From Eledone cirrhosa (Eukaryota), in NCBI GenBank assembly GCA_964016885.1, contig OZ024742.1:97960001-98024000 (forward strand): 64,000 nt of DNA, given 5' to 3'. Below the pieces are notes generated by a model. The model saw nothing but the letters and a program-made list of their open reading frames with translations, searched no databases and was not told where the DNA came from. This document shows positions 15,917 to 54,975 of this stretch, piece after piece. Numbering within the stretch: position 1 is the stretch's first letter; each line of letters starts with the position of its first letter. The position numbers and the translations under genes were made by a program.

Positions 15917-15978
<62 letters not shown>

Positions 15979-16247
15979 GTATATAAGTATGAAGAAAGTG
16001 CTCAAGCGTGGACATGCTATACATCTTATATATAAAATGTTGAAGACCCTTAAAGGAGGGAAGAAAGTAGTTGCTTTCAGTAGCTATGAGGATCTAGACG
16101 CTATTACTCATAGCGGCCGATGGCAACTTCTTTGCCATCTTGTAAAAGCTATCTTTATATCATTTCAGCGCTTGAGCGCTCTCTTTACAATTTTATGTAT
16201 ACATATCTTCTCAGCGCTTCAAAATCCAAAAGATTTGACTTCGTACA

Positions 16248-16334
<87 letters not shown>

Positions 16335-16449
16335 CAGAGAAACAAGGCAACAACACACGCACACACACACACACACACATACACACACACGCACGCACAC
16401 ACACACTCAAGCGAGACAACAACACACGCACACACACACAGAGTAACAT

Positions 16450-16710
16450 TTAACAAACAGGCAGAGAATGGACTGACAGCTAGCGCCACCTCACTCCCAC
16501 ATTCGGCCGCTGACCTCTGCCCGACCGACCCCATTTCACGCGCACGCGCGCTCCGCTGAATACCTCAGATATTCAAAACAACAAACAGCGGAGGACGCGT
16601 TTCGCACCTTTCCGACAGATAACCTTTCCCCCACCCCGGAAAAAAACCCCAGTTGATGAATGTGAATCCGAAATATATAGGGACAATTAAATCTCTCCCA
16701 AGGTAACTCT
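16450..16710 (+). promoter_or_regulatory. CpG-rich island with CTCF-like motif and possible first-exon donor
   Basis: Locally GC/CpG-rich, single-copy within the window. TAGCGCCACCTC at 16481 resembles the CTCF core; CCAAG|GTAACT donor-like site at 16703. Confidence 0.35.
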
Positions 16711-22271: not shown

Positions 22272-25040
22272 GCAAAGTTTTATTTAAATTGTTGGGTTAC
22301 AACGAGTAAATATTTATAACTGATATAAAAGCACTCAACAAGTATTTGGAGTATATTTACGATATTAAATAAATGGAAACTATATTTAAATAATAACTCT
22401 GAACTAAATAGAAAAAGAAAACAAATTACACAATTTTTTAATTACTTTAATCTAAAAATAGAAATTGAGAATAACTATAGAATAGTCAATTTCCTAGATG
22501 TAACATTAAATCTCAACACATGTCTTCACTATCCATTTCACAAGTTGAATGAAAACTTAAACTATGTCAGTTTTAACTCTAACCACCCCAGATCTGTTAA
22601 AAATACTATAGTGAACTCTGTTCAAAAACGTATCTCTAGAATCTCATCTAATAAAAAGATTTTCGACGAAAAAGCCCAGTATTACAATGAAGCGTTAGCT
22701 AGAGCAGGATATAGTGATAAAATTATGTACATAGATAATAATAGACAAACTAACCAAAATAACAACAATTTTAATTATGGCAACAACTTTAACAACTATA
22801 ATAGAAAGCATTACAATAATTCCAAAAGCCAAAAAAGAAATAGAACTAGGAATATAATATGGTTTGCCCCCCCTTGCTCACTAAACATTAAAACCCACAT
22901 CGCTAAACTATTTTTTAATGCTCTTGATAATCGCTTCCCTAGAACACGTAAGTATCACTCAATTTTCAATAGACATACTATAAAATTAACTTACTCATCC
23001 ACCAAAAATTTAGCATAAAATATTAATAGAATAAATAATAGGAATTTAAAACCTAGCCAAAATACCGATAATAGCATAAATAATATCCAAGTAAACAAAT
23101 GTAACTGTAGAGATAGATCTAAATGTCCGTTAAATAACAATTGCTTAGTTAAAAATATAATATACAACTGTAATGTTAAAACGGACTTAAATTCTTTTAA
23201 CTATGTTGGTTCCACCTCGACAGAATTTAAACTTCGCTATAATAACCACAAGAATTCTTTTACAGATCCAAGAAAAAAATCTTCAACATCACTATCAGGC
23301 TTACTCTGGCAACTTAAGCAGGATAACGTTGGGTATTCGACGGCTTGGAATATAGTCTCAAGAGGGATTCCTTTTAATTCATCTTCTGAGACATGTGACC
23401 TCTGCGCGGAGGAGATATTCTTTATACTAAAATCTAAAAATTCCCTTAATTTACGGACAAATTTATTCAGTTGCTGCAGACATAGATTGAACTCAACTTT
23501 TAAATATAAATATAAATTTAAAATGTAGTATATTTACTTATGATTTGTAATTATCTATGAAACTCGCCGATAAATCTTTCGATTTCTTTTTTTTAAACAT
23601 TTTTCATGAATAATTAAACTACCCTAAAAGCTGATGCTCCAAATATATCGAATAAATTTTACACTAGATAAACTTCTATAATAAATATAAGACCATCTGT
23701 AGATCAAATGGGTATCCTAAACTTTTGGAATGATTTCTGCTAGGCAGGATTTGGTAAATAATTTTGGTTTTGTTTGCTTTTGATTCTGATGCTTATAATG
23801 AACTTGGCAATATATTGTCAATTAATTTTGAAGGGTTGATTTCTGTGGTTGATTTGCGGGGCATACTGTGTTTTATTTTTTATTTTTAATATTTTTTAAT
23901 TTTTTAATATTTTTATTGATATATCGATATATGTTGTCTATTTATGCTTGAACGATAATCATGTAGAGTAAAGACAAGAATAGTATTGTTAAAATTAATG
24001 TAGATTCTATATATATGTGTGTGTATGTACACATATATGTATACTAGAATTTTTATAGCACAATGAGAATGTTTTCATGTGAAATAGGAATTTGCAGAGT
24101 TGATCACGTAAATTCACATGGATGTCTATAGTATCGAATCTGGGATAACCTTCTATTTTCTTTTTCTTTTTTCATGAAAGTGCATATATACTTATGTATT
24201 TCAATTTTTTTTGAAGTTTTTTTATCTCAGTTTTTTTATCTCAGTTTTTTTATCTCAGTTTTTTTAACTCAGTTCTGATTATAAACTTAGGAATTTTAAA
24301 CTAGACATATGATCATTATTTTTCACACATTATTGATACGTGTCTCATTCATGAATACTGATATTTACATTATAATACCTAATTCATACGAATTGATATT
24401 TTTAGATTGATGAAACATAATGTTTTAAATCTGCCTCGTTTATCTCTGGATACTTTTCTTTTCTCTCTATGTAACGGCTGTTTTCTCTCCTAACCACATA
24501 TATCTCTCTCTACCTTAATACTAGAACTAAATAAATAAATAAATAAATATATCATTGATACGTCATTCAACTGGTGCCCAACTACCTATTTTCTTTCTCT
24601 CTATCTCTATCTATATCTATCTCTCTCTATTTTTTCTCTCTCTCTCTTATCTCTCTCTCTCTCTCTCTCTATCTATCTCCCTCTGTGTTTTTTTTCTCTC
24701 TCTATCTATCTATCTCTGTTTTTTCTTTACATGAATTTCTTCTCTCTATCTATCTCTCTATATCTATCTCTCTCTCTTTTTCGTTGCATGCATTTCTTCT
24801 TTTTCTTCGCTTTCTTTCTTTCTTTCTTTTTATAACTGTCCCTAACATTTTTCACTACCAAATCAACTTTTTAAATGGAAGTTGAAGTTGTAAGGTATGT
24901 CAAATCTATCTATTTATAAGACTGTTTATATTGTATTTTGCCTGATGAAGGCATACCATATTTTTAATATGATATCCCTGAAATATATATAATGAAATAA
25001 ATATGGTTTTATAAATATAGTTTCCATTTATTTAATATCG
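22272..25040 (+). mobile_element. 5'-truncated PLE with short inverted pLTR at its 5' end
   Basis: NFLDVTLNL, YVSFNSNHP, WFAPP, then CNCRDRSKCPL..C, NIIYNC..NYVGST..RYNNH, CDLCAEE (22450-23528; one stop at 23016). 22360-22388 is the reverse complement of 25013-25040. HHR at 24931-25000. Flanked by (TA)n. Confidence 0.9.
24931..25000 (+). ncRNA. Type I hammerhead ribozyme (family C; mirror copy 26661-26730 on minus strand)
   Basis: tattttgc-CTGATGA(24942)-agg..catatt/aatatg..cct-GAAA(24980)-tatata-TA-atgaaata. Stem I imperfect. Confidence 0.65.
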
Positions 25041-25056
25041 TATATATATATATTTA

Positions 25057-25971
25057 TTTAGAAACACACAGATACATGCGGACACACACATATACATGAA
25101 TGCATCCGCACCCAACCGTGAGTTAAGGGTGCCAACTTCACCGATGTTGTTCAATGAATGACTGGGACAGACCAATCCGGTTGAACCAGACTGAACCAGT
25201 ATCAGAGTTAAAAATACATTATGAAGAGAGAAGAAACATTTAGATATAATTAGTAATAAAATGTATCATACCTAAACTGCTCCTAGATTCTTCGACTACG
25301 TAGTTTCGTGGCATAAACAAAAACAATACATCATAAAGATATAGAGTTCTTGCGAGGTCTGCCGACTTATCAAGAGGATACCTCATTTTACTAGTCTCAA
25401 GAACGCGTCTACACGACGTGAGAAAGAATCCCAAAAGGCGGAGTGGGAGATAGTCACGCGATATAACGGTCGAGAAACAGAGCTAAGCCTCTTATAACCC
25501 CGAAGAAAATACGTCTGTGTCCGCATGTATCTGTGTGTTTCTAAATATATTGTTAATAACTCCCTCTGGTCGAGCAATCTTTGAAGTGTGGGGACTGCTG
25601 GAAAGCTTCCATTACTCATACTTCTCGCCTCCTTCACCACCTCTTCTACGGCTTCGATATAATACCCCCTCCGCCTCCGTGGTATTTTCTTCGGGGTTAT
25701 AAGAGGCTTAGCTCTGTTTCTCGACCGTTATATCGCGTGACTATCTCCCCCTCCGCCTTTTGGGATTCTTTCTCACGTCGTGTAGACGCGTTCTTGAGAC
25801 TAGTAAAATGAGGTATCCTCTTGATAAGTCGGCAGACCTCGCAAGGACTCTATATCTTTATGATGTATTGTTTTTGTTTATGCCACGAAACTACGTAGTC
25901 GAGGAATCTAGGAGCAGTTTAGGTATGATACATTTTATTATTAATTATATCTAAATGTTTCTTCTCTCTTC

Positions 25972-25975
<4 letters not shown>
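25057..25975. mobile_element. Rearranged (inverted) copy of the 591-bp HHR repeat family
   Basis: 25057-25512 matches 46981-47437. 25514-25975 is the same unit in the opposite orientation. HHRs at 25289-25378 (-) and 25816-25905 (+). Flanked by (TA)n. Confidence 0.9.
25816..25905 (+). ncRNA. Type I hammerhead ribozyme, U3:A8 core variant, long stem II
   Basis: tcctc-TTGATAA(25821)-gt(c)ggca...tgccac-GAAA(25887)-ctacgtag-TC-gagga. All three stems pair; stem III palindrome ACTACGTAGT; predicted cleavage after 25900. Confidence 0.8.
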
Positions 25976-26016
<41 letters not shown>

Positions 26017-26621: not shown

Positions 26622-28695
26622 GATATTAAATAAATGGAAACTATATTTATAAAACCATATTTATTACATTATATATATTTCAGGGATATCATATTAAAAA
26701 TATGGTATGCCTTCTTCAGACAAAATACAATATAAACAGTCTTATAAATAGATAGATTTGACATACCTTACAACTTCAACTTCCATTTAAAAAGTTGATT
26801 TGGTATTGAAAAATGTTAGGGACAGTTATAAAAAGAAAGAAAGAAAAAAGCGAAGAAAAAGAAGAAATGCATGCAACTAAACAGAGAGAGATAGATATAG
26901 AGAGATGGATAGAGAGAAGAAATTCATGTAAAGAAACAGAGAGAGATAGATAGAGAGAGAAAAAACACAGAGGGAGATAGATAGATAGAGAGAGAGAGAA
27001 GAGAGAGAGAGAGAGAAAAAATAGAGAGAGATAGATATAGATAGAGATAGAGAGAAAGAAAATAGGTAGTTGGGCACCAGTTGAATGACGTATCAATGAT
27101 ATATTTATTTATTTATTTATTTATTTAGTTCTAGTATTAAGGTAGAGAGAGATATATGTGGTTAGGAGAGAAAACAGCCGTTACATAGAGAGAAAAGAAA
27201 AATATCCAGAGATAAACGAGGCAGATTTAAAACATTATGTTTCATCAATCTAAAAATATCAATTCGTATGAATTAGGTATTATAATGTAAATATCAGTAT
27301 TCATGAATGAGACACGTATCAATAATGTGTGAAAAATAATGATCATATGTCTAGTTTAAAATTCCTAGGTTTATATCAGAACTGAGTTAAAAAACTGAGA
27401 TAAAAAAACTGAGATAAAAACTGAGATAAAAAACTTCAAAAAAAATTGAAATACATAAGTATATATGCACTTTCATGAAAAAAGAAAAAGAAAAAGAAAA
27501 AGAAAAAGAAAAAGAAAAAGAGAAAGAAAAAGAAAAAGAAAAAGAAAAAGAAAAAGAAAAAGAAAAAGAAAATAGAAGGTTATCCCAGATTCGATACTAT
27601 AGACTTCCATGTGAATTTACGTGATCAACTCTGCAAATTCCTATTTCACATGAAAACATTCTCATTGTGCTATAAAAATTCTAGTATACATATATGTGTA
27701 CATACACACAAATATATATAGAATCTACATTAATTTTAACAATACTATTCTTGTCTTTACTCTACATGATTATCGTTCAAGCATAAATAGACAACAGATA
27801 TCAATATATCAATAAAAATATTAAAAAATTAAAAAATATTAAAAATAAAACACAGTATGCCCCGCAAATCAACCACAGAGATCAACCCTTCAAAATTAAT
27901 TGACAATATATTGCCAAGTTCATTATAAGCATCAGAATCAAAAGCAAACAAAACCAAAATTATTTACCAAATCCTGTCTAGCAGAAATCATTCCAAAAGT
28001 TTAGGATACCCATTTGATCTACAGATGGTCTTATATTTATTATAGAAGTTTATCTAGTGTAAAATTTATTCGATATATTTGGAGCATCAGCTTTTAGGCT
28101 AGTTTAAATATTTATGAAGAATGTTAAAAAAAAAAAAGAAATCGAAAGATTTATCGGCGAGTTTCATAAATAATTATAAATAATAAGTAAATATACTACA
28201 TTTTAAATTTATATTTATATTTAAAAGTTGAGTTCAATCTATGTCTGCAGCAACTGAATAAATTTGTCCGTAAATTAAGGGAATTTTTAGATTTTAGTAT
28301 AAAGAATATCTCCTCCGCGCAGAGGTCACATGTCTCAGAGGATGAATTAAAAGGAATCCCTCTTGAGACTATATTCCAAGCCGTCGAATATCCAACGTTA
28401 TCATGCTTAAGTTGCCAGAGTAAGCCTGATAGTGATGTTGAAGATTTTTTGCTTGGATCTGTGAAAGAATTCTTGTGGTTATTATAGCGAAGTTTAAATT
28501 CTGTCGAGGTGGAACCAACATAGTTAAAAGAATTTAAGTCCGTTTTAACATTACAGTTGTATATTATATTTTTAACTAAGCAATTGTTATTTAACGGACA
28601 TTTAGATCTATCTCTACAGTTACATTTGTTTACTTGGATATTATTTATGCTATTATCGGTATTTTGGCTAGGTTTTAAATTCCTATTATTTATTC
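26620..28695 (-). mobile_element. Second copy of the 22272-25040 PLE (GIY-YIG, 3' UTR, pLTR), inverted
   Basis: Near-identical reverse complement of 23027-25040. The C-terminal part of ORF 28196-28852 encodes the GIY-YIG domain. Both ends lie in (TA)n. Confidence 0.92.
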
Positions 28696-28725
28696 TATAT
28701 ATATATATATGTGTGTGTGTGTTTG

Positions 28726-28822
<97 letters not shown>

Positions 28823-29271
28823 ATAATAATAAATTTGAAGACTAAAATCCAAAGAAGGCTCGATAAGGATAAATATATATCAAATATATAAGAACGGTAG
28901 AGCAAATATTTATTAAAATAACATATTAGAGTTTAAGCAAAGAATCGATGCAGAATCTTCTGAAACTAAAAATATCGTATTATCTTCATTTTTTTCCGTT
29001 CTTAGCCAGGGAACGTTTCCACGAACCAAAGTATCGTGTTCCTGTCTTCCCCAGGTTGCAACGTTTTTCGAAATATTTACTTCTGCGTTCACAGATTGAT
29101 ATGTCTAGTTTTACAAGACACCGTTAAGGGTGAAAGCAGCGATTCTTTGTTTAAACTTTAATCTCCTCATTTCGGTACCACCTCCAATAATACAGTGAGT
29201 CACATACACACTATATATATATATATATATGTGTGTGTGCGTGTGGGTGTGCGTGTGTGTGTTTATATATA

Positions 29272-33045: not shown

Positions 33046-33279
33046 TTATACTTTGGGAGGGTCATTGTTGCCAATAAGAAACACACGCATCAGTTGCTTT
33101 CACTTCAATTTATTAAATAAATTTATAAATTTGGGAATTTATAAATTTCCGATTGGTTGGTTTGTTCCACAACCAGATGGTTGTTTATATATTGTCAAAG
33201 TTCTTTCGTCACACATTCTGTGACCTCTTCAGTGACTGGCGATTCTTTTCTTTGTTTTTTGTGCCTCTCCTTTGTTCTG

Positions 33280-36100
33280 ACACAAACAACAATAACAACA
33301 CATACAACAATAATAACATACACGGAGACAACAACATCAACAACACACATCAACAAAAGCACACATCAACAGCAACAACAACAACAACAACACACACACA
33401 TTCAATGCCTCTCACCACCACCACAATCTTAACAAACACACAGACACAGAAAACAGGTAATGACAGTAGCATTGAAATAAGGGAAGGTCATAGGATTGAA
33501 AGGAGAAGGGAGACTATAGACAGAGAAAATAACCAAGACGAACACACAGACACACATTATAGAGTCGATAATAACAATGAGCCAGAGGAAAGAGACAGGA
33601 GTAATAATGAGAGACATAGAAACAACCATGAGGATGTTGGTGGAAATAGAAATAGAAATAGAAACAACATAACTAACAAAAACAAAAGCACTAGTACACA
33701 TAAAGCAGCAACCTGGAACTCTACTTTTTATAATCCCTGCGATAAGTCGTTCGACCTGCGACGTGTCGACGTCACGACTTTAGCTTTTAACAAACGCACG
33801 CAATTGCCGTCGAAGGTCGATGAACAAACAGAAGCACAATTTAGTATAGCTAGATCTAAACTTAGAAATATTATAGAACATTATAGCAAGAAGCATAATA
33901 GAATGGAGGCCCAGCAACTGGGAGAAAAATCTGCAAATGGCTTGCGTAAGCTCATGCAGCACTCGCGTAATGGAGAGATAGCATGCTTTCCAACAGACAA
34001 GTCTGGCAGAATGTCGGTTGAGAGTCTGCCAATCTACATCCAGGCAATGCAACCCCACATCACTAACACAAGAGAAGTAACACCACAAGAGCATGAGGAT
34101 AGAGAAAAAGCCCTCAAATCCCATATGATGATGTGGACAAATATAATGCAAATATAATGCAGCCCAACAAAAGGACTGCCAACAACTTCCAGGCCTGGAA
34201 TAATGACGTGGCAGCGTTGTATGGGCTTCTAAAAGACCATAAAACGAGCAGTGACCCTGTCACAGGACCACCAACACGGCCAATCTGTGGAGCTAACATT
34301 GCTAGAAACTACAGACTGTCCTACTTCCTCTCCCTGATCATACGCCCCATGATTAAAATGTCCCCAGATGTATGTGACAGCACGGAGGACCTCCTCAGCA
34401 GAATCGGCGAGAGTAACCGATCTAGGTACCTAACAAACTGCATAATAGGTAGTATGGATGTTGTGTCCCTGTATCCATCTATTGACGTGGATTTTGCTGT
34501 GGAGAAATGAGTAGAAATGATCAGTGAGAGCAATGTTGAATTCCGTGGGATTGATACCAGTGAGCTGGGACTGCTACTTAAACTTACCTATAGTAATAAT
34601 TATCTAGACACATATGACCCTAGCAACCTGTTCCCTACAAGACCAGCAAGAGGAAGACCACCTACCATTACCTCAATGGCCAAGAAAACCCACACAGATA
34701 GACGGAACCCCGAAAACCACGATGAACTAAAGAAAATGATTGCACATGCGGTGGGGGCCAGCACAAAATTAACCCTTAAGGAACATATGTTCAAATTTAA
34801 TGGAAAAACATATGCCCAAGAGGAGGGAGCAGCCATTTGTGTTAACATTGCAGGCGACATAGCTAACCTATTCATGGTATGGGACAGTAGACTTAAACTT
34901 AAACTTAAAGAACAATTAGAAGACCCCTTAACCCTGATAATGTACTCCCGCTACGTTGATGATATAAACATCGTAGTTAAAACACCCCCACTAGAGAACA
35001 GTCAGGAATTAGAGAAAAACACAATGGAAAGCATCCAGCAAATAGCTAACTCCATCCACCAGAGTATTAGAGTTACTATAGACTACCCAAGAAAACACCC
35101 CAACCATCGATTACCGGTACTAGACACAGAGCTCTGGTTAGATACCATTAATAACAAAAAACAAATCCTCCATTCCCATTATGCCAAACCCATGACTTCC
35201 AAATATCTGATCCACCGAAACTCAGCTGTTTCGGACCATACCAAAATCAACGTACTGATTGCTGATTTGGTACGGGTGATGAGAAACGTGTCCCGCATGT
35301 GCATCCCCGAAGAAATAGAGAGACACATACAACACTTCATCCACCGTATACAGTTCTCTGGTTACAATCAGAGAGATGAAATCAGAGTGTATAGAGGAGC
35401 CAGAACCAAATGGGAAAAAATGGTAAATAATGACACAAATGGAACCTGCCCCGTGTATAGGAGCAAATTTTGGAATAGAATAGAAAGAACTAGGAATAAG
35501 GATAATAGAATAAACTCATGGTATCATAGCAATAAATACCAGAGTGTAATGTTCATCGATACAACCCCGAGAGGTGAATAAGATTACAAATTTAGAAGGG
35601 CCCTAGATTAAACATAAACTCAATATTAAGATAGTAGAAAGACCAGGTACCTCCATAAAAACACTTATTAGCAAGACATACCCTTTTCAAAGACCTCCCT
35701 GTATAAATAAGAAATGTATCATCTGTAAATTAAGCCCCCATATTAACTGTAAAACTAGAAATGTAGTATATAGCATAAGATGTACTGAAGGACAATGTAG
35801 AGATAAAAATATTGTGTACATAGGTGAGACAGCTCGTAGTATAGGGGAACGGATAAATGAACATTGGCGTGACCTTCAAGATAGTAAAGAATCATCTGTA
35901 CTCTACCAACATGCTAAAATAGAACATAAGGGTAAATTAGAGAACATAGAAATAAAAATAGAATCTACACACAGAAAAGACGCAATGTTTAGACAAATCA
36001 CAGAAGCAATAAACATAAAATAATTACAACCAAAATTAAATAGAAAACATGAGTGGAACAGCAACATCACAACTTACAATTAAGGATAAATAAAAACACA
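33280..36100 (+). pseudogene. PLE reverse transcriptase + GIY-YIG endonuclease, disrupted
   Basis: PTDKSGR, YGLLKDHK, PTRPICG, SMDVVSLYPSI, YAQEEGAAI, YSRYVDD, LPVLD, HYAKPM, NVVYSIRC..VYIGETARSIGERINEH, RQITEAINI. Frameshift near 34150; stops at 34508, 35579 and 36021. Confidence 0.93.
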
Positions 36101-40624: not shown

Positions 40625-43600
40625 TGTTATAATTCAAGTTAAGTGGAAAAAGTTTGTCGACTAGGATCGTGTACGACACATATACCAGAAATATATAAAT
40701 CAAACATCTTGAATCTTAAAACAACATATTCAAAATAAATAAATGAATGGTTTACGATTCCTTATAATAGTCAAACAATATAGTTTAAAAATAAAAAAAT
40801 AAATAATAAAAAAAATAAAAAATACAATAAACCTCGAAAAAATTAGATTTGACGATTACACAGCTTTGACCAAGAAATCGAGTATTTTAAATTTTTCTCT
40901 TTTAATGACCATATAAGTTGTGATAAAGAGGTCGAAAGTTAGGATTCGAAAAAGAATATTTGTGATTCGAAAATCTTAATTTAAATGTCGATGAATTTGC
41001 ACCAGTATGTGATGTTATTTGCTTTTACGGTGCATTTATAGACCAGATTGCTATCCAGACAATTATTTTGTAGAGGGCAATTTGATCTATTTCTACAATT
41101 ACATTTCCATTTATTGTTATTACTATAAATTAAACAATTGACATTAACATTGCTAGTACTTGGAAGTGTTCTATTGATAGTGCTTAGATTAATGTTATTG
41201 TTATTCCTAGTATTAATATTGCTAGTGTCATTATATTCATTATCCCTAATTGTTTGTTGGTATGATTTAGAATTCTACTATTTATTTTTGCAATGTTCTG
41301 GGCCATATTCATAGTTGTAGAATAAGAAAGCTTAATTGTGTGTCTGTTAAATATGGAACGGTATTTATGTGTTATGGGGAAGCATTTATCTAAAGCTTTA
41401 AAGAATAGATTTGCGAGTGGTGTTTTGATTGCTACAGATTCGGGAGGAGCAAACCATATAACTTCAAAGCTGTGTAATGGTCAAATCTACTTGAATTCTT
41501 CAATTTCACCTAACTACAATCTTTGTACCCTGAAGACCCTATTAATAATTACTAATTATGATAATTTAATTAACAAAAAAGGTGAATTATTCTCAAATTG
41601 CCTCCATAAAGCTTCTTCTACTTTCCAAGCCTCACAAAAGTCAGGAAAAAACATTGAATAAATAAGTTTTAATTTTTGATGTTTGTTATCAACTGAGTGC
41701 ATAAAACGATACTATAATAGATTATAAAACCTTCTAATAATTTTTATTTATTTACGATATGATTAATGTTGGATTAAGGGTTCTATATAAACATATAGAC
41801 AGTTAACATGATCTTTTGATGAGTATACATATCATTTGATTGTTTAAATACATTTAATTTTTTCGGGGTTTATTGTATTTTTTATTTTTATGTTTTTATT
41901 TTTTAATTATATAGTTTGAGAATTATAAGGAATCGTAAACCATTCATTTATTTATTTTGAATATGTTGTTTTAAGATTCAAGATGTTTGATTTATATATT
42001 TATGGTATATGTGTCGTACACGATCCTAGTCGACAAACTTTTTCCACTTAACTTGATGTAAAACTTCAATTATAACATTATTAACATAATTGTATTTATT
42101 ATTTATTATATGTCTATAATTGACTAATATCGTCTTAAACTTTAAACAGTATACTCTGTATGTATTTAGACCAATGAGTATATCTAGTTTAATAACAGCC
42201 TTTTAGGTACCTTTATAAGTGCCTTGGATACTTAAGTGCATTCTAGTGTTATAATTTAATTATTTTCTAAATTATATAATGATTATTTTTTAATTTATCT
42301 TTTTTAATATAATTAAATTTGGATTAACTTCGGGTTGAAGAAAATCTTAAGTCTTTTCTTTCTCATGTTTGCAGACACTTTAAATATGATATTATACTAT
42401 AATATAGATCTTTAAAAATGTTCTTGTATTTTTAAATTATATAGCTTATATATTTGACACTTATAGGATCGCAAACCATTCATTTATTTATTTTGAATCT
42501 GTGTTTTATGATTCATGAAGTTTGATTTGTATATTTATAGTATATATCTGTTAAATGATCCTAGTTGAATAATCTTTTTTAATATAATAATTGACGTAAA
42601 ACTTTATTTTTAACACTATTAACAGTAATTATATTTATTATATTATATATAAGTGATTAATATCGTCTTAAACTTTAAACAATGTACTCTTTGTATAAAT
42701 TTAGACAAATGCATATATCTAGTTTAATAATATCCTTTTTAAGTATACTTATAAGGCCTTTGTATACTTAAGGGCCTTCTAATTTTAAATTTAACATTTT
42801 TAAATTTATAATTGCAATTATTTTCTAAATTATGTAATGATTATTTTTTAATATAAAATCTCTTTAATATAACATTTTTTTAATATAATTTAATTTGGAT
42901 TACCTTCTGGCTGAAGAAAATATTAAGTCTCTTTTTTCTCATGTTTGCAAATACTTCAAATATGATATTATACTATAATACAATACTTATACATTTTGTA
43001 GCTTGAAATGTTATGCCTTTAGACTAATTCACTATTTTGAACTAACATAAAGATTCGAAATTCAACGGTCATCCGTATACGATGGGATATATATAATTGA
43101 TTAATAGACTATTTCTAATTAACTTAAGGATTCGAAAATAAACCCTCATATAACTACACCCAGATATATTTGATATTTTGATTGATTGATTATTTCTAGA
43201 TAATTTAACGATTCGAAATCATTCATTCACAAAGCTATGCCCAGATATATATTTATTTATATATATATTTTTGCATAATCTAATTATACCCTATTTATCC
43301 ACGACAATACAAATATCCCTCCCTATGCTTTATACTATAAAAATTATTTTCTCCTCGTCTCTCTCTCCTTAATCAATTTTCTTTTGCTTTCGTACATAAG
43401 ATATTTCTATACTTCTAATCACTCTCTTTTTCTTCATCTGTTTCTCTCTCTGTATTCCATTTCTTCTTTCTTCAATAATTTAAATTATTTAAATCTCTAA
43501 CAGTTATGTAAGTTTGTATTATATTAGTAGTTGTTTATTATTATGTAACTTTATAAGCTTTCTCACCCGCACCCTGTGTATTATATGTAATTTTTTCATG

Positions 43601-43701
43601 TCTCAGTCTTATGGTATATAAATATTGTTTTGCCACATCTTATTCACTGCCCGGACTGAATTTTAACCATCTACTTAGTCAGGGTATGTCATGGATCATC
43701 T

Positions 43702-43768
43702 TATTTTATCTGATGACGGCGTACTGTTGAAGATAGCTCAGTACCTCTGAAATATGTATAATAAAATA
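43702..43768 (+). ncRNA. Type I hammerhead ribozyme (mirror copy 38939-39005 on minus strand with core CTGATGG)
   Basis: tattttat-CTGATGA(43710)-cggc-gtactg...cagtac-ctct-GAAA(43749)-tatgta-TA-ataaaata. Perfect stem I. Confidence 0.72.
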
Positions 43769-43950
43769 TACTTGATCACACGAATATCTATTTTTGTCAA
43801 TATTTTGAATTAATATTAATAACTCCGGAAAACCATACTTGTCTAATCTATTGTAAAACTTTATTCTCTGATTTATTCATTGAACCTTGTTTAATCTTTA
43901 ATATATATACAATATATTAACAAATGAAACTATATTTATAAAACCATATT

Positions 43951-44015
43951 TATTTCATTATACATATTTCAAGGGCCACCAGAGCAAACTATGGTGCGCT
44001 TTCATCAGATAAAAT
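43951..44015 (-). ncRNA. Type I hammerhead ribozyme (family C)
   Basis: Minus strand: tattttat-CTGATGA-aag..cacca/tggtg..ctt-GAAA-tatgta-TA-atgaaata. Confidence 0.72.
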
Positions 44016-44284: not shown

Positions 44285-44950
44285 CTTTTTTTTAAAAATT
44301 GTTTGATCTTATTTATTTATTTAGTTATTTCTGCTTCTGAACTACTTCCCAATGGCTCGCACATAGTGATATGTGCATGTATATATGTATGTATATGTAT
44401 GTATGTGTATGTATATATATATATATGTGTGTGTGTGTATATATGTATATATATATATATATGTGTATGTATGTGTGTGTGTGTAAGCATGTATATATGT
44501 GTGTATGGGTATGTATGTGTACGTGTGTATGTATATATATATGTGTGTATATACACGTACGCGTATCTATAGAGCTTTTTGTTTCTTTGTTTTTTTGTGT
44601 TTTTGTGTTTGTATGTATATATGTGTGTGTATACCCCATTTTTATATATGTGTGTGTGTGTATTTGTGTGTACATATTTGAGTGCATATATATTTGTGTA
44701 TATGTATGTGTATGTATTTATGTTGCTGTTCGTATTTACATGTAGACGTAAATACGCTTATGTGAAAAAGTATACGTCTACGTATAATTACGTATATGCA
44801 CGTGGTTGAGTGCGTGTATGTTTATGTTCTGGATATTTATTTATATATTTGTTGCCCCTAATTCCGTTTTGCCCGTTTTTTCAGCCTCACTTACATATTT
44901 CCTAAAGTTTGTTTTCAAATCCACATTTAATAAAAACACTATGCTATTTA

Positions 44951-45011
44951 TTCATCCTGACAACTGAAGACAGACATAACATCTGCCTTCAAGAAACCAC
45001 TGGTAAATGAA
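44951..45011 (+). ncRNA. Decayed hammerhead ribozyme
   Basis: ttcatc-CTGACAA-c-tgaagacaga/tctgccttca-a-GAAA-ccactgg-TA-aatgaa. Core position 8 is A, consistent with CpG decay of CTGACGA. Confidence 0.5.
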
Positions 45012-45041
45012 ATAATTATCTTTTGTTGTTTATTACATAAC

Positions 45042-45115
<74 letters not shown>

Positions 45116-45141: not shown

Positions 45142-45189
<48 letters not shown>

Positions 45190-46929
45190 CGAAAGAAATG
45201 TGGTAAGGAACCAGGTGGACCATAACGCACCAAAGTACTCAATACTTGGGGTAGTAGAGTGGGTAATAGGAACCAGTAAGACCCCGACAGCTGAGCTCAA
45301 GCCGTTTCAACGGCTAATTCTGGACTAAATGAAAATTTATCCTGGTATTTAAATAGCCGATCTTCTCAAGGGGTAATTCCATATATGGTCAAAGTGATTG
45401 TCAAAAATCAGTAGTAATTCTGTGATTGCAAATTAGTAGGGGAGATGGTGGCTAAACCTGCCAGTAGGAGAAAGAGGGGAGGGGTGGAGTAGACCCAATC
45501 AAGCGTTGGTAGTGCCAGCTACAGCTGGGCATGAGGTCAAAGAAGATACTGGGGAGGAGGAGGGGGAGGAAGTCGGAACGGTAGGTAGAACAATGGGGGG
45601 TAAAAATATATATGAAAGAAAAAATACTGAGAGTGAAGAAAAGCGAATAAGTGTAAAGAAAAAAAAAAGTAAAGCAAGTTCTACGACCTAGGTCTCTAGC
45701 TATTGTTAGGCTAGAATAAATAAATAAATAAATAAAGAAAGAAAGAAGTAAAGAAAGAAATAAAGAAATAACGAAATAAGTAAAAGAACTAGGTGGGACG
45801 AAATAGGCAAGGACCCTTTTAAGAGGTATAAGTACGTAAATGATACGGTGACGGGTCAACAAAAGGAGCCAAAATACTAAAGAGACTACCACGAAATAAA
45901 TAATAAAGGTTTCTATCCCGGGCACAATGCCAGCAACCACCCAGTGTAGCAAAGTGAACTAGTACGAGATAATAATTCTGAGTCCCGAAAAAAATATATA
46001 CTAATGCTAACTCTAAAAGATCTAAAACAAGCTTTCTATATTTCTTAGTGGCACTTATGCCTTATTTTTTCGTTTCAGTATTTCTTTCTTCGCTTTTCTT
46101 TTGGGCGGGGTGGATTCTGAATTTATTTTTCCGTATTCTACCTTTACTTCGTACGAACTTTCATGTAGCTTGTTTTAGATCTTTTAGAGTTAGCATTATT
46201 ATATATTTTTTTCGGGACTCAGAATTATTATCTCGTACTAGTTCACTTTGCTGCACTGGGTGGTTGCTGGCATTGTGCCCGGGATAGACACCTTTATTAT
46301 TTATTTCGTGGTAGTCTCTTTAGTATTTTGGCCCCTTTTGTTGACCCGTCACCGTATCATTTACGTACTTATACCTCTTAAAAGGGTCCTTACCTAATTC
46401 GGCCCACCTAGTTCTTTTACTTATTTCGTTATTTCTTTATTTCTTTCTTTACTTCTTTCTTTCTTTCTTTATTTATTTATTTATTCTAGCCTAACAATAG
46501 CTAGAGACCTAGGTCGTAGAACTTGCTTTACTTTTTTTTTCTTTACACTTATTCGCTTTTCTTCACTCTCAGTATTTTTTCTTTCATATATATTTTTACC
46601 CCCCATTGTTCTACCTACCGTTCCGACTTCCTCCCCCTCCCCCTCCCCAGTATCTTCTTTGACCTCATGCCCAGCTGTAGCTGGCACTACCAACGCTTGA
46701 TTGGGTCTACTCCACCCCCTCCCCTCTTTCTCCTACTGGCAGGTTTAGCCACCATCTCCCCTGCTAATTTGCAATCACAGAATTACTACCGATTTTTGAC
46801 AATCACTTTGACCATATATGGAATTACCCATTGAGAAGATCGGCTATTTAAATACAAGGATAAATTTTCATTTAGTCCAGAATTAGCCGTCGAAACGGCT
46901 TGAGCTCAGCTGTCGGGGTCTTACTGGTT

Positions 46930-46932
<3 letters not shown>
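45190..46932. mobile_element. Non-coding element with ~765-bp inverted arms, each carrying a U3:A8 hammerhead
   Basis: 45267-46033 is the near-identical reverse complement of 46166-46932. (TA)n on both sides; no RT or endonuclease coding. Confidence 0.88.
45281..45374 (-). ncRNA. Type I hammerhead ribozyme, U3:A8 variant, long stem II (mirror copy 46826-46919 on plus strand)
   Basis: acccc-TTGAGAA-ga(t)cggcta...tagccgt(t/c)-GAAA-cggct-tgagctc-agctg-TC-ggggt. All stems pair. Confidence 0.8.
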
Positions 46933-46977
<45 letters not shown>

Positions 46978-46983
<6 letters not shown>

Positions 46984-48200
46984 TTAGAAACACACAGATA
47001 CATGCGGACACACACATATATACATGAATGCATCCGCACCCAACTGTGAGTTAAGGGTGCCAACTTCACCGATGTTGCTCAATGAATGACTGGGACAGAC
47101 CAATTCAGTTCGAACTAGACTGAACCAGTATCAGAGTTAAAAATACATTATGAAGAGAGAAGAAACATTTAGATATAATTAGTAATAAAATGTATCATAC
47201 CTAAACTGTTCCTAAATTCCTCGACTACGTAGTTTCGTGGCATAAACAAAAACAATATATCAAAGATATAGAGTCCTTGCGAGGTCTGCCGACTTATCAA
47301 GAGGATACCTCATTTTACTAGTCTCAAGAACGCGTCTACACGACGTGAGAAAGAGTCTCAAAAGGCGGAGGGGGAAATAGTCACGCGATATAACGGTCGA
47401 GAAACAGAGCTAAGCCTCTTATAACCACGAAGAAAATACCACGGAGGCGGAGGGGGTATTCATATCGAGGCCGCAGAAGAGGTAGTGAAGAAGGCGAGAA
47501 GTCTGAGTAATGGAAGCTTTCCAGTTGTCCCCACACTTCAAAGATTGCTCGACCGGAGGGAGTTATTAATATATTTAGAAACACACAGATACATGCGGAC
47601 ACACACATATATACATGAATGCATCCGCACCCAACTGTGAGTTAAGGGTGCCAACTTCACCGATGTTGCTCAATGAATGACTGGGACAGACCAATTCAGT
47701 TCGAACTAGACTGAACCAGTATCAGAGTTAAAAATACATTATGAAGAGAGAAGAAACATTTAGATATAATTAGTAATAAAATGTATCATACCTAAACTGT
47801 TCCTAAATTCCTCGACTACGTAGTTTCGTGGCATAAACAAAAACAATATATCAAAGATATAGAGTCCTTGCGAGGTCTGCCGACTTATCAAGAGGATACC
47901 TCATTTTACTAGTCTCAAGAACGCGTCTACACGACGTGAGAAAGAGTCCCAAAAGGCGGAGGGGGAGATAGTCACGCGATATAACGGTCGAGAAACAGAG
48001 CTAAGCCTCTTATAACCACGAAGAAAATACCACGGAGGCGGAGGGGGTATTCATATCGAGGCCGCAGAAGAGGTAGTGAAGAAGGCGAGAAGTCTGAGTA
48101 ATGGAAGCTTTCCAGTTGTCCCCACACTTCAAAGATTGCTCGACCGGAGGGAGTTATTAATATATTTAGAAACACACAGATACATGCGGACACACACATA
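46978..48200 (-). repeat. 591-bp tandem repeat (2.07 copies) with one U3:A8 hammerhead per unit; retrozyme-like
   Basis: TATTTAGAAACACACAGATAC at 46981, 47572 and 48163. HHRs at 47218-47305 and 47809-47896 (-). Units differ at only a couple of visible positions. Confidence 0.9.
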
Positions 48201-48209
48201 TATACATAT

Positions 48210-48240
<31 letters not shown>

Positions 48241-48242
48241 TA

Positions 48243-51200
48243 TTGGAATAAATGCTCTGAAATAGCGATATATATGTGAATATAGACATAGAATATTCGA
48301 AAATATTCTGTATGTTTATAATAAACATTTTGAAGACCTAATCGCTATAGAATAGAATACGTCACGTATTACAATTAGATTCTCGATAAAAGCAATGGAA
48401 GTAATCTACGCGTTTCATTCTTGTTAGAAATCATCAGGACCACATATCCAGTGCTTTTATCGAGAATGACACAGCTAGAGACTTATAGAATACTTAGCTG
48501 TGTACAGGAACTGGTTTGAAAGAGCGGTTGCCGGTCCGGCAGAAATTAGAAATTGGAATAAATGCTCTGAAATAGCGATATATATGTGAATATAGACATA
48601 GAATATTCGAAAATATTCTGTATGTTTATAATAAACATTTTGAAGACCTAATCGCTATAGAATAGAATACGTCACGTATTACAATTAGATTCTCGATAAA
48701 AGCAATGGAAGTAATCTACGCGTTTCATTCTTGTTAGAAATCATCAGGACCACATATCCAGTGCTTTTATCGAGAATGACACAGCTAGAGACTTATAGAA
48801 TACTTAGCTGTGTACAGGAACTGGTTTGAAAGAGCGGTTGCCGGTCCGGCAGAAATTAGAAATTGGAATAAATGCTCTGAAATAGCGATATATATGTGAA
48901 TATAGACATAGAATATTCGAAAATATTCTGTATGTTTATAATAAACATTTTGAAGACCTAATCGCTATAGAATAGAATACGTCACGTATTACAATTAGAT
49001 TCTCGATAAAAGCAATGGAAGTAATCTACGCGTTTCATTCTTGTTAGAAATCATCAGGACCACATATCCAGTGCTTTTATCGAGAATGACACAGCTAGAG
49101 ACTTATAGAATACTTAGCTGTGTACAGGAACTGGTTTGAAAGAGCGGTTGCCGGTCCGGCAGAAATTAGAAATTGGAATAAATGCTCTGAAATAGCGATA
49201 TATATGTGAATATAGACATAGAATATTCGAAAATATTCTGTATGTTTATAATAAACATTTTGAAGACCTAATCGCTATAGAATAGAATACGTCACGTATT
49301 ACAATTAGATTCTCGATAAAAGCAATGGAAGTAATCTACGCGTTTCATTCTTGTTAGAAATCATCAGGACCACATATCCAGTGCTTTTATCGAGAATGAC
49401 ACAGCTAGAGACTTATAGAATACTTAGCTGTGTACAGGAACTGGTTTGAAAGAGCGGTTGCCGGTCCGGCAGAAATTAGAAATTGGAATAAATGCTCTGA
49501 AATAGCGATATATATGTGAATATAGACATAGAATATTCGAAAATATTCTGTATGTTTATAATAAACATTTTGAAGACCTAATCGCTATAGAATAGAATAC
49601 GTCACGTATTACAATTAGATTCTCGATAAAAGCAATGGAAGTAATCTACGCGTTTCATTCTTGTTAGAAATCATCAGGACCACATATCCAGTGCTTTTAT
49701 CGAGAATGACACAGCTAGAGACTTATAGAATACTTAGCTGTGTACAGGAACTGGTTTGAAAGAGCGGTTGCCGGTCCGGCAGAAATTAGAAATTGGAATA
49801 AATGCTCTGAAATAGCGATATATATGTGAATATAGACATAGAATATTCGAAAATATTCTGTATGTTTATAATAAACATTTTGAAGACCTAATCGCTATAG
49901 AATAGAATACGTCACGTATTACAATTAGATTCTCGATAAAAGCAATGGAAGTAATCTACGCGTTTCATTCTTGTTAGAAATCATCAGGACCACATATCCA
50001 GTGCTTTTATCGAGAATGACACAGCTAGAGACTTATAGAATACTTAGCTGTGTACAGGAACTGGTTTGAAAGAGCGGTTGCCGGTCCGGCAGAAATTAGA
50101 AATTGGAATAAATGCTCTGAAATAGCGATATATATGTGAATATAGACATAGAATATTCGAAAATATTCTGTATGTTTATAATAAACATTTTGAAGACCTA
50201 ATCGCTATAGAATAGAATACGTCACGTATTACAATTAGATTCTCGATAAAAGCAATGGAAGTAATCTACGCGTTTCATTCTTGTTAGAAATCATCAGGAC
50301 CACATATCCAGTGCTTTTATCGAGAATGACACAGCTAGAGACTTATAGAATACTTAGCTGTGTACAGGAACTGGTTTGAAAGAGCGGTTGCCGGTCCGGC
50401 AGAAATTAGAAATTGGAATAAATGCTCTGAAATAGCGATATATATGTGAATATAGACATAGAATATTCGAAAATATTCTGTATGTTTATAATAAACATTT
50501 TGAAGACCTAATCGCTATAGAATAGAATACGTCACGTATTACAATTAGATTCTCGATAAAAGCAATGGAAGTAATCTACGCGTTTCATTCTTGTTAGAAA
50601 TCATCAGGACCACATATCCAGTGCTTTTATCGAGAATGACACAGCTAGAGACTTATAGAATACTTAGCTGTGTACAGGAACTGGTTTGAAAGAGCGGTTG
50701 CCGGTCCGGCAGAAATTAGAAATTGGAATAAATGCTCTGAAATAGCGATATATATGTGAATATAGACATAGAATATTCGAAAATATTCTGTATGTTTATA
50801 ATAAACATTTTGAAGACCTAATCGCTATAGAATAGAATACGTCACGTATTACAATTAGATTCTCGATAAAAGCAATGGAAGTAATCTACGCGTTTCATTC
50901 TTGTTAGAAATATTTTCGAATATTCTATGTCTATATTCACATATATATCGCTATTTCAGAGCATTTATTCCAATTTCTAATTTCTGCCGGACCGGCAACC
51001 GCTCTTTCAAACCAGTTCCTGTACACAGCTAAGTATTCTACAAGTCTCTAGCTGTGTCATTCTCGATAAAAGCACTGGATATGTGGTCCTGATGATTTCT
51101 AACAAGAATGAAACGCGTAGATTACTTCCATTGCTTTTATCGAGAATCTAATTGTAATACGTGACGTATTCTATTCTATAGCGATTAGGTCTTCAAAATG

Positions 51201-52177
51201 TTTATTATAAACATACAGAATATTTTCGAATATTCTATGTCTATATTCACATATATATCGCTATTTCAGAGCATTTATTCCAATTTCTAATTTCTGCCGG
51301 ACCGGCAACCGCTCTTTCAAACCAGTTCCTGTACACAGCTAAGTATTCTATAAGTCTCTAGCTGTGTCATTCTCGATAAAAGCACTGGATATGTGGTCCT
51401 GATGATTTCTAACAAGAATGAAACGCGTAGATTACTTCCATTGCTTTTATCGAGAATCTAATTGTAATACGTGACGTATTCTATTCTATAGCGATTAGGT
51501 CTTCAAAATGTTTATTATAAACATACAGAATATTTTCGAATATTCTATGTCTATATTCACATATATATCGCTATTTCAGAGCATTTATTCCAATTTCTAA
51601 TTTCTGCCGGACCGGCAACCGCTCTTTCAAACCAGTTCCTGTACACAGCTAAGTATTCTATAAGTCTCTAGCTGTGTCATTCTCGATAAAAGCACTGGAT
51701 ATGTGGTCCTGATGATTTCTAACAAGAATGAAACGCGTAGATTACTTCCATTGCTTTTATCGAGAATCTAATTGTAATACGTGACGTATTCTATTCTATA
51801 GCGATTAGGTCTTCAAAATGTTTATTATAAACATACAGAATATTTTCGAATATTCTATGTCTATATTCACATATATATCGCTATTTCAGAGCATTTATTC
51901 CAATTTCTAATTTCTGCCGGACCGGCAACCGCTCTTTCAAACCAGTTCCTGTACACAGCTAAGTATTCTATAAGTCTCTAGCTGTGTCATTCTCGATAAA
52001 AGCACTGGATATGTGGTCCTGATGATTTCTAACAAGAATGAAACGCGTAGATTACTTCCATTGCTTTTATCGAGAATCTAATTGTAATACGTGACGTATT
52101 CTATTCTATAGCGATTAGGTCTTCAAAATGTTTATTATAAACATACAGAATATTTTCGAATATTCTATGTCTATATT

Positions 52178-52180
<3 letters not shown>
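48243..52180. repeat. 310-bp tandem array (~8.6 units, then ~4.1 inverted units), one hammerhead per unit; retrozyme-like
   Basis: TTGGAATAAATGCTC at 48243, 48553, 48863 ... 50723. Orientation flips at ~50910. Units essentially identical; (TA)n at both ends. Confidence 0.96.
51059..51147 (+). ncRNA. Type I hammerhead ribozyme of the 310-bp unit (representative of 12 intact copies)
   Basis: attctcgataaaagca-c-tgga-tat-gtggtc-CTGATGA(51089)-t-ttct-aaca-agaa-t-GAAA(51110)-cgcg-TA-gattac-t-tcca-t-tgcttttatcgagaat. Long stem I with internal loop, palindromic stem III (ACGCGT), predicted cleavage after 51119. Confidence 0.9.
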
Positions 52181-52215
<35 letters not shown>

Positions 52216-52321
52216 TTAGTTAAGCAAAGCAAGACCACAAATTTCACAAGGAAGACATTATTAAAAGATTGTCAACATAGTTTTAGTTTAATGTAAGGAA
52301 TGTAGAGAATAATAATAATAA

Positions 52322-52498
52322 TTTTTTCTACTTTAGGCACAAGGCCAGCAATTACCCAGTACATTACTGGTACTTTATTTTATCGACTCCGTAGGGATGA
52401 AAGGCAAAGTTAACCCCGGCGGGATTTGAACTCAGACTGTAAAGGGACGTAACTATGCTAGAAAACATGGCGTCCAACCCTCTACCGATACTGCCAAT
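52322..52498 (-). mobile_element. tRNA-derived SINE
   Basis: Minus strand: A box TGGCAGTATCGG, B box GAGTTCAAATCC, then GCCTTTCATCC..GTCGATAAAATAAAGTACCAG (Deu/Nin-domain-like). Inserted in an (AAT)n run. Confidence 0.85.
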
Positions 52499-52685
52499 AT
52501 AATAATATTAATAATGTCCGTTTACAATTGTTTCGCTACTCCATATAATGTTTCTGGATCAAATGATTATAGATCATTATTGATCTGGTTCAGTTGAAGA
52601 TAATTAACCATAGTGAAATACCAATATATAGAACATTACATTCATGTAACATTCTTTCTTTCTTTTAATTTATATTCCTTTTGAA

Positions 52686-52804
52686 GTTCCGATGAGCTGC
52701 TCCAATTTTACCTAAGTTAATTATCTTCAACTGAACCAGATCATTAGTGATCTATAATCATTTGATCCAGAAACATTATATGGAGTAGCGAAACAATTGT
52801 AAAC
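52686..52804 (+). ncRNA. Hammerhead ribozyme with long stem II insert; core U4C
   Basis: gtt-CCGATGA(52689)-gctgctcca...tggagtagc-GAAA(52790)-caattg-TA-aac. 9-bp stem II base; palindromic stem III (ACAATTGT). Confidence 0.7.
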
Positions 52805-54975
52805 GGACATTATTAATATTATTATTATTATTATTCTCTACATTCCTTACATTAAACTAAAACTATGTTGACAATATTTTAATAATGTCTTCCTTGTGAA
52901 ATTTGTGGTCTTGTTTAGCTTAACTAATGAATATTTCCAGCTCTGTGCACCTAACCTCTGCATGAACCCAGCCACCTAGCTATACAAAAAAAAAACACCC
53001 ACCAAACATGCAATTGGCAGTGGAGATCTAGACACTTATGTTGACCCTTTCCCTTCTACCAAGTAACCATATCTTTTCAGGGAAATCTAAAACAGTAAAT
53101 GTACCAGGGATACAGTAAACCGCAAGCATGCACCTAAAACGCATATGGCCTGAATGAATCATTACATTCTGCAATATCTATGGCTACTGTCTAATTCCAA
53201 GTATCTGGAACCTGGGAAAATATATGTATGTATGAACCCATAACTGTATATAGACTCTTGGATATTTTAAACCTGGCGGAACCTATTCTCTCTCAAGGTT
53301 TTGAACACAACCGATTTCTTCCGGAGAAGGAGAGAGATTGATAGTGAGGAATTGAGAAAGAATTACACAAGCAGAATCAACTTGTGTTGATTTTACCTGA
53401 GTGAATTCTAAACACAGAGCACAATTGTAATGAATGACGCAACGCATTTTATATGACGTTGTTCTGGGTCTTTTAATTAGTTGTCTACCCCAAAACTGAA
53501 AATAGTACTAAAGCCTAAGAAACTTCCAAAGTAAATAACATTATAGAGACTGAGATCACTCTACATTGTACACCCGAAGAAAATCTTGACAAACAAATCT
53601 TTAACAGCCCTCATTTCCACATCACAACAAATCCCAATACGTCGACCTCTCACAAAGATAGTAGATGATGACGTCAATAACAAATATTTTGATATTTATG
53701 TATACAAAAAATACACGGCATCGTTTTAGTAAAACAACAAATATTCACGGCTAGCAAATTACCCGTTGGTTTTATAAACCTCTTTATCGTGCCAGAACAA
53801 CGCTTCCAGAATTTACAGTTTACGGAATGGAAGACCACCGGGATTTCGCTTCTTGTCAACTCATTTCGGCTTATATTCAAACGATCTTCCCTCACCTTAA
53901 ATCAATTATATTCAAAACGTTGTTGTACAACTAATACATCCATAAAGCAACAGACTTAAAATAGACCCTAGCGAATTATCAGCGATATTAAATAACAGAT
54001 AATAAAATGAGCCTTCACATTAAAAAACATGAACATATCATACACACAAAAGGAGAAAAAATACGTGAAATTTTATATAATACATCCACAACACTCACAA
54101 GATATATAGTTAAGTAAGTGAGGCTGCAACACTTCCACTATACTCGCCTAGTCTCTAGTCTTAATTTTATTTGCGCTGATCAATGGAGAAGAAACACTGG
54201 CATACAGTTTTATATTTACATTCTGTGGGTAATGATCATTCTGTTTTGTAATGTCTCTCCCATTTCACATTCGTTTGGGTCTAGAGTTGGACCGATGTCT
54301 AATAATTTTGCCTTATTATATTAACATACGATGAATTGTTGGTGTTTGTTGTGATTTTCTCATTGTCATTTAAGTTTGTATTTTTACAACTTCTCGGTTT
54401 TATGTTTGTCAAATAGCAGCTGGCGATGTTTACAACTGCGTCTATTCGTTTAATTGCCATCTTTTCTGTTTATCTTATTCTAATCTTTTTTTTTTTCTAT
54501 GTATTCAAACATTGGAGTGGTGGTAGGTATTTGCTGCCATCTCCGTTATGGCTAACACCTCATACTGCTACCCTAGAGGAAGCCAGTCATATTGCATCTC
54601 TGATAAACAAATTAAAGTGGATGTTTGCAGAAATATGTGTACACAACGAGAATGTCTAATGTTTGATAGTTATTCGTTGGAAAAAACGAAAATATGAACA
54701 CGTTTTGTCATCAGGTAATCATGGAAGAAAATATCTTCTAAGCAGAGCTCTGTGAAAACGTGACTTTTCATGGCAAACAGCAGCGACAACATCACCCATA
54801 ATATGTTAATAATAATATATGAATATATATATGTATTTCATAATTTTCCACGTATATGTTAGTCTTTCATACACACACACACATAAGTGTATGTATGTAT
54901 GTATATATATATATTTGTTTGTTTAGTTAATCATTTATTCATTTATTTGTGAGTACGCACACTCACAATAGGGTA

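What the first reader, a model, noticed from the sequence alone, without database searches (positions are those of the whole stretch)
45150..52940. A 7.8-kb train of four different non-coding ribozyme elements separated only by (TA)n
The order is (TA)n, inverted 765-bp HHR element, (TA)n, 591-bp HHR tandem, (TA)n, 310-bp HHR array, (TA)n, inverted HHR element. The four share no evident sequence similarity beyond the HHR architecture and none encodes protein. Inference: one (TA)n tract acted as a repeated landing pad for several non-autonomous parasites of PLEs. Each insertion leaves TA arms that are again targets, giving a self-extending ribozyme cluster.
Basis: partly seen in the sequence, partly recalled or inferred. 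Interest (0 to 1): 0.75.

Follow-up and report, generated by a model that had tools for sequence, protein, structure and literature searches.

The report
Stacked ribozyme retroelements in TA repeat
Four unrelated mobile elements with hammerhead-ribozyme-like motifs sit side by side in one TA repeat; two are cut-off ends of protein-coding Penelope-type jumping genes and two are non-coding repeats likely copied by such genes, and the pile-up is likely what repeated insertion into TA repeats gives in this crowded genome, not a new system.

Summary
The train is real: four unrelated elements (A-D), each with a type I hammerhead-like motif, joined by (TA)n. But A and D are not non-autonomous: they are 5'-truncated fold-back copies of protein-coding Penelope-like elements with Hydra-clade motifs; one A copy elsewhere has an open 721-aa RT/GIY-YIG frame. 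Only B (591 bp) and C (310 bp) are non-coding tandem retrozymes. All four are abundant (1,986-16,637 exact k-mer hits); 140 of 146 defined 3' ends abut (TA)n against 8% background. Internal divergence (D 2.3%, A 1.8%, B 0.34%, C 0.08%) puts the young ones inside, so insertion was likely sequential. Different families directly adjoin at about chance rate (7 of 321, 5.0 expected); the 3-fold excess within 1 kb disappears when TA content is allowed for. So the landing pad is likely passive, not a preferred hot spot. The scan reported this system before on other DNA of this genome. Known kinds; the shared insertion footprint is the useful part.

The parts
44750..45044 (+). Fifth, older hammerhead element (decayed core CTGACAA at 44957); its 3' end abuts (TA)n or runs into a tail in other copies
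   Evidence: 17 hits in 13 fetched loci, 74-98%; a copy with an intact core in L303
45044..45188 (.). (CA)55 then (TA)17
45189..46033 (-). A left arm: 5'-truncated 3' end of a Hydra-like PLE, with 77-nt tail 45189-45265; hammerhead core starts 45369, predicted cleavage 45286
46034..46934 (+). A right arm, untailed end; mirror hammerhead near 46831-46914 with a private change at 46830 that breaks the closing pair of stem I
46932..46977 (.). (TA)23 between A and B
46972..48207 (-). B: non-coding 591-bp tandem, 2.1 units, one arm only; U3-A8 hammerheads with cores at 47300 and 47891
48198..48243 (.). (TACATA)n/(TA)11 between B and C
48244..50911 (-). C left arm: 8.6 units of 310 bp, 8 hammerheads, tailed end
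50909..52188 (+). C right arm: 4.1 inverted units, 4 hammerheads, untailed end
52181..52212 (.). (TA)16 between C and D
52209..52619 (-). D left arm (untailed end), interrupted by a dispersed repeat
52323..52495 (.). 173-bp abundant dispersed repeat inserted in D (SINE-like: label recalled, not tested)
   Evidence: 175 hits in 109 fetched loci; four more copies in the window
52620..52982 (+). D right arm: 3' end of a second Hydra-like PLE; hammerhead core 52689, predicted cleavage 52801; tail cut after 47 of about 175 nt, no TA beyond
   Evidence: junction bridged by a 378-nt contig with 0 differences in run X1

Best explanation
The 7.8 kb holds four unrelated retroelement insertions joined by (TA)n, two of them truncated copies of protein-coding Hydra-like Penelope elements and two non-coding hammerhead tandem repeats, which likely arrived one after another because all of them are likely targeted to (TA)n by Penelope-type enzymes. 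Shown: family identity, TA adjacency, unequal internal divergence, and one footprint shared by all four families (RNA 3' ends face outward, one end with a tail and one without, each ending in a short TA-like overlap). Inferred: a GIY-YIG endonuclease cuts (TA)n; both DNA ends prime reverse transcription at two fixed sites of the RNA; the two cDNAs join head to head; B and C units come from repeated copying of one circular or multimeric RNA. Inferred order: D and A first, B next, C last or with B. Inferred: adjacency follows from target supply in a genome with about 3.4 million TA tracts and of the order of 100,000-200,000 hammerhead motifs.
For: Upstream of A in other copies lies an RT + GIY-YIG frame, open for 721 aa in L141, with pLTR and inverted truncated copy; D copies carry a broken related frame, about 30-56% identical by segment. 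TA at 140 of 146 defined 3' ends (142 of all 163 ends) vs 8.4% of background positions. One tailed plus one untailed end in 101 of 104 fold-backs with both ends classified, of 234 blocks examined. Divergence D 5/219, A 14/767, B 2/591, C 1/1280; A vs C P 1e-5, D vs B P 0.018, A vs B P 0.011. In C, 17 of 17 arm-fixed variant sites are shared by both arms (8 of 22 loci tested had such sites); within-locus distance 0.14% vs 0.93% between position-sampled loci. Different-family direct adjacency 7 of 321 vs 5.0 expected, P 0.24; within 1 kb 11 vs 8.7-10.8 expected from TA content.
Against: Under independence a direct train of exactly these four families is expected only 0.0001-0.002 times per genome; it needs the wider pool of hammerhead families (3-42 four-chains expected) plus selection of a striking window. 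Background rates rest on 20 occupied ends in 400 kb. A crude test with any recurrent terminus gave 41% vs 33%, P 0.002, and same-family plus different-family two-sided tracts were 4 of 137 vs 1.1% expected, P 0.07: mild clustering is not excluded. B vs C (P 0.24) and A vs D (P 0.59) cannot be ordered. B and C share no sequence with A or D, so the helper enzyme is not identified. Minimum-energy folds of the A, B and C motifs are not the hammerhead fold. Gene conversion could lower divergence in B and C.
Confidence: 0.75

Rival explanations
1. Active hot spot: fresh TA arms beside an earlier insertion (pure, newly lengthened, or held in a cruciform-prone fold-back) are preferred targets, so clusters grow by positive feedback.
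For: Three direct links at one locus are very unlikely for these four families; 3-fold excess per kb within 1 kb and three times more TA in element flanks, 16.7% vs 5.4%; 41% vs 33% in the crude terminus test.
Against: The excess disappears per tract or per TA base (P 0.26, 0.52); direct different-family adjacency 7 of 321 vs 5.0. The flank TA figure includes the element's own arm.
Confidence: 0.17
2. Single event: one enzyme complex jumped between several RNAs at one break, laying down a chain with TA spacers.
For: Direct TA-only links and a shared end footprint.
Against: Internal divergence differs about 20-fold between A or D and C; 12 A differences are private to one arm; D alone has taken a later insertion and lost part of its tail. 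B and C alone could be one event (P 0.24).
Confidence: 0.04
3. The train or the C fold-back is an assembly artefact.
For: Inner junctions could not be checked in independent data (skips the repeat at 48186-48251).
Against: The same two fixed ends and fold-back form recur at 30 other C blocks; a variant rare elsewhere marks all 12 C units here; the D right junction is bridged by a contig of run X1, which may be the same sample.
Confidence: 0.04

Closest known systems
Hydra clade of Penelope-like elements (Craig et al. 2021, PMC8557442; section 11 and passages read)
   Same: A and D: single ORF with RT and C-terminal GIY-YIG, RWR/RWK, DKT, CxCX5C, CxxC and CxH motifs, hammerhead in the pLTR, (TA)n insertion, partial tandem plus inverted truncated copy, tail at one end.
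   Different: A repeat unit is about 3.55 kb (paper: generally under 3 kb); tails are 77 and about 175 nt (paper: 30-40 bp for PLEs); hammerheads are core variants with long stem II inserts. No tree was built.
Metazoan non-LTR retrozymes (Cervera and de la Pena 2020, PMC7229834, passages read; Li, Clavereau and Pollet 2026, 10.64898/2026.07.22.740005, parts 1-3 of 5 read)
   Same: B and C: non-coding tandem units, one type I hammerhead per unit, low GC, proposed PLE dependence.
   Different: Here arrays are dispersed fold-backs with fixed ends in (TA)n. A term search of PMC7229834 found no 'inverted' or 'microsatellite'. Li et al. discuss local tandem growth from a pLTR, whereas B and C match neither A nor D pLTR. 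B (591 bp) exceeds the 150-450 bp of the 2020 paper, within the 51-972 bp of the 2026 preprint.
PLE hammerhead variants (Cervera and de la Pena 2014, PMC4209133; Perreault et al. 2011, PMC3088659; passages read)
   Same: U3-A8 covariation, palindromic helix III, long helix II, opposite-strand pairs of motifs, U4C and U10.1-U11.1 all have precedent.
   Different: Stem II spans 53-93 nt in A, B and D; activity untested.
Terminon chains of endonuclease-less PLEs at telomeres (recalled; paper not held)
   Same: Successive hammerhead-bearing retroelements joined by short repeats.
   Different: Internal locus, endonuclease-bearing elements, fold-back insertions, young ones in the middle.

Membership tests
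Hydra-clade PLE (A, D) | Single ORF with RT and C-terminal GIY-YIG endonuclease | tested here: met
   721-aa frame with YRDD, NVIY...YIG read by motif; D frame broken in copies seen. Pfam gave no family, PDB nothing under E 1.5.
Hydra-clade PLE (A, D) | DKT and RWK motifs | tested here: met
   A: SDKTG, RLRWR; D: SDKTK, RIRWK
Hydra-clade PLE (A, D) | CxCX5C linker; CxxC and CxH near the C terminus | tested here: met
   A: CNCPDRSIC, CNLC, CKH; D: CNCRYPNAC, CDLC, CQH; no CX2-5CxxC in A
Hydra-clade PLE (A, D) | Insertion into (TA)n | tested here: met
   A 55 of 55, D 33 of 36 defined 3' ends
Hydra-clade PLE (A, D) | Hammerhead in the pLTR | tested here: met
   variant-core type I motifs
Hydra-clade PLE (A, D) | Generally under 3 kb | tested here: not met
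   A unit about 3.55 kb in L141 and L149; a stated tendency, not a strict criterion
Hydra-clade PLE (A, D) | Absence of CCHH and IFD; placement in the RT tree | not tested
   no reference PLE proteins were at hand
Non-LTR retrozyme (B, C) | Tandem units each with a type I hammerhead | tested here: met
   2 in B, 12 in C
Non-LTR retrozyme (B, C) | No protein coding, GC under 50% | tested here: met
   longest stop-to-stop frames 86 and 59 aa, no tblastn hit to the A protein; GC about 0.42 and 0.34
Non-LTR retrozyme (B, C) | Self-cleavage | not testable with these tools
   motif and conservation only
Non-LTR retrozyme (B, C) | Expression as circular RNA | not testable with these tools
   only indirect: both arms of an array share variants
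Non-LTR retrozyme (A, D) | Non-coding element | tested here: not met
   both run upstream into PLE coding sequence in other copies
Rfam hammerhead families | Gathering score | tested here: not met
   0 matches; C scores 16.5 bits vs 52 for HH9

The most novel reading that the evidence does not exclude
Hydra-type Penelope enzymes copy a single circular ribozyme RNA from both ends of a cut in (TA)n, starting at two fixed sites, and each insertion adds or lengthens TA arms, so that TA fields and ribozyme trains build themselves by feedback; this locus would record four or five rounds in order.
Probability: 0.25. Interest if true: 0.62.

Novelty: new member of a known kind. Interest (0 to 1): 0.36.

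Why it matters
The train itself is mostly a by-product. What is useful is that autonomous-type (A, D) and non-coding (B, C) families with no shared sequence show the same insertion footprint side by side. That supports the proposed dependence of animal retrozymes on Penelope-like elements and gives fixed ends to test in a target-primed reverse transcription assay, which Craig et al. name as the missing step. The age-ordered nest also offers a simple population test. It warns that isolated hammerhead fold-backs without an ORF should not be called non-autonomous families before longer copies are checked.

Tried and rejected
Rfam: no match at gathering score; weak miRNA-like hits are TA repeats. 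Pfam and PDB gave nothing for the A protein. Sequencing runs: no RNA holder listed; this says nothing on expression. Runs X4, X5 and X7 did not cover the unique right flank, so no orthologous allele was seen; the B-C junction could not be bridged because the repeat was skipped. The B-C junction was not searched in the genome. A genome-wide count of two termini across one TA tract was not obtained; sampled loci were used. The 423 matches count only one form of the C untailed end (most sampled ends lack two letters) and are not a locus count. The recurrent-terminus test includes low-complexity clusters and is weak. In one search some neighbour pairs are counted from both sides and one D copy twice, so 11 overstates distinct pairs. 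Dropped before counts: loci of the window itself and five segmental-duplicate loci. A shared hairpin between B or C and the PLEs was looked for by blastn only and not found. DNA-transposon (MITE/foldback) reading rejected: inverted arms are of unequal length and run into RT coding sequence. Literature: searches listed no paper on TA-linked trains of hammerhead elements; supplements were not read, and Craig's files S1/S2 may list related families.
Full report
Observation. The region reads (CA)55(TA)17, A (45189-46934), (TA)23, B (46972-48207), (TACA)/(TA)11, C (48244-52188), (TA)16, D (52209-52982). A, C and D are fold-backs; B has one arm. Rfam finds no hammerhead at gathering score and only C at E 4.9. 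My own descriptor found a type I motif in each element: A and B with the U3-A8 core, C with the usual core, a U-U pair at 10.1/11.1 and a palindromic stem III, D with U4C. Shuffles gave any hit in 4, 0, 0 and 5 of 200; the core variants were chosen after inspection. Core letters are the majority letter in 23, 37, 16 and 54 distinct copies, though the minimum-energy folds of A, B and C are not the hammerhead fold. All these variants have precedent in passages of PMC4209133 and PMC3088659. Activity is untested.

Families. The window lies in a 3.0-Gb genome. Exact k-mer counts are A 15,899, B 7,672, C 16,637 and D 1,986; 6,698 A ends are directly followed by six TA. Longer A copies run upstream into coding sequence. 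L141 shows an inverted truncated copy, a pLTR, a 721-aa frame and a 3' repeat. The protein has RWR, DKT, YRDD, CxCX5C, a GIY-YIG-type motif, CxxC and CxH, which match the Hydra clade as described in section 11 of PMC8557442; Pfam and PDB gave nothing and no tree was built. D copies carry a related, broken frame with the same motifs. Many A copies are 160-200-nt fold-backs. B and C have no frame over 86 and 59 aa and no similarity to A or D; they fit non-LTR retrozymes.

Targeting and footprint. In loci sampled by position on contig C1, 140 of 146 defined 3' ends (142 of all 163) abut (TA)n, against 8.4% of positions in 400 kb of evenly spaced background. Of 234 element blocks, 104 had both outer ends at a defined terminus, and 101 of these had one tailed and one untailed end, in all four families; 20 had an unclassified end and 110 a 5' outer end (single or split arms). 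Each terminus falls on a short TA-like word of the element, 20-260 nt downstream of the predicted cleavage site and not at it. In C arrays both arms share 17 of 17 arm-fixed variant sites, and units within a locus differ by 0.14% against 0.93% between loci. I infer priming from both ends of a cut in (TA)n on one RNA template, circular or multimeric for B and C. That reading was also in earlier scan notes.

One event or several. The A-B and C-D junctions were matched in full only here (15 of 15 and 40 of 1053 candidates scored). Internal divergence is D 2.28%, A 1.83%, B 0.34%, C 0.08%; outer versus inner differences are significant, A vs D and B vs C are not. D also carries a later 173-bp insert and a cut tail. 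This fits insertion from the outside in. Homogenisation of tandem units could exaggerate the gap.

Is it a hot spot? Among 321 element-flanking tracts outside the background set, 11 had an element on both sides, 7 of a different family, against 5.0 expected (P 0.24). Within 1 kb of 114 ends there were 11 different-family neighbours against 3.5 expected per kb, but 8.7 per tract and 10.8 per TA base (some pairs counted twice). Against this: a crude test with any recurrent terminus gave 41% vs 33%, and this exact four-family train is expected only 0.0001-0.002 times per genome. The background holds 29 hammerhead motifs in 400 kb against 0, 0 and 1 in shuffles, so of the order of 200,000 genome-wide, and 3-42 four-chains of any family are expected for 100,000-200,000 insertions. 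The locus is likely one of these, picked for being striking. Background counts are small and mild feedback is not excluded.

Independent data. A contig of run X1, possibly the same sample, bridges the right end of D without differences. Inner junctions and other alleles could not be seen.

Novelty. Hydra-clade PLEs in (TA)n, fold-back insertions with tails, and PLE-linked retrozymes are in print. Four searches listed no paper on such trains; supplements were not read. The scan has described the same system in other windows of this genome; a word search for trains gave nothing. Verdict: real, new members of known kinds, arrangement largely explained by target supply.

Noticed in passing
window 44750-45044: A fifth, decayed hammerhead element adjoins the train on the left across (CA)55(TA)17; other copies end in (TA)n or a tail.
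   Followed up: partly
window 43568-44010: Two more hammerhead motifs (cores 43710 +, 44008 -) of further TA-associated repeats, 1.2 kb left of the train.
   Followed up: partly
window 25010-25980: Second B insertion, a fold-back, about 1.4% private changes.
   Followed up: partly
L173-L202 (contig C1): Most sampled A copies are 160-200-nt fold-backs whose arms stop about 45-65 nt from the untailed end, inside the hammerhead's GAAA/stem II-III region: a likely truncation hot spot.
   Followed up: no
window 1852-2727, 22329-23528, 28196-28879, 40858-41631: Fragments of other PLE frames related to the A protein, 32-51% identical.
   Followed up: no
window 33129-36023: Broken RT + GIY-YIG element of another PLE type, flanked by hammerhead-like motifs at 33232 (-) and 36287 (+).
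   Followed up: no
window 12226-14420: Fragments with RNase H- and integrase-like sequence of an LTR retroelement (label recalled).
   Followed up: no
runs X1-X20: The B+C stretch is held in part by runs under 17 organism codes; only X1-X3 and X11 were laid on it, so spread across species is a lead only.
   Followed up: no
L016-L020 (contig C27): Five near-identical loci with A and an adjacent small element: a segmental duplication that copies a partial train.
   Followed up: no
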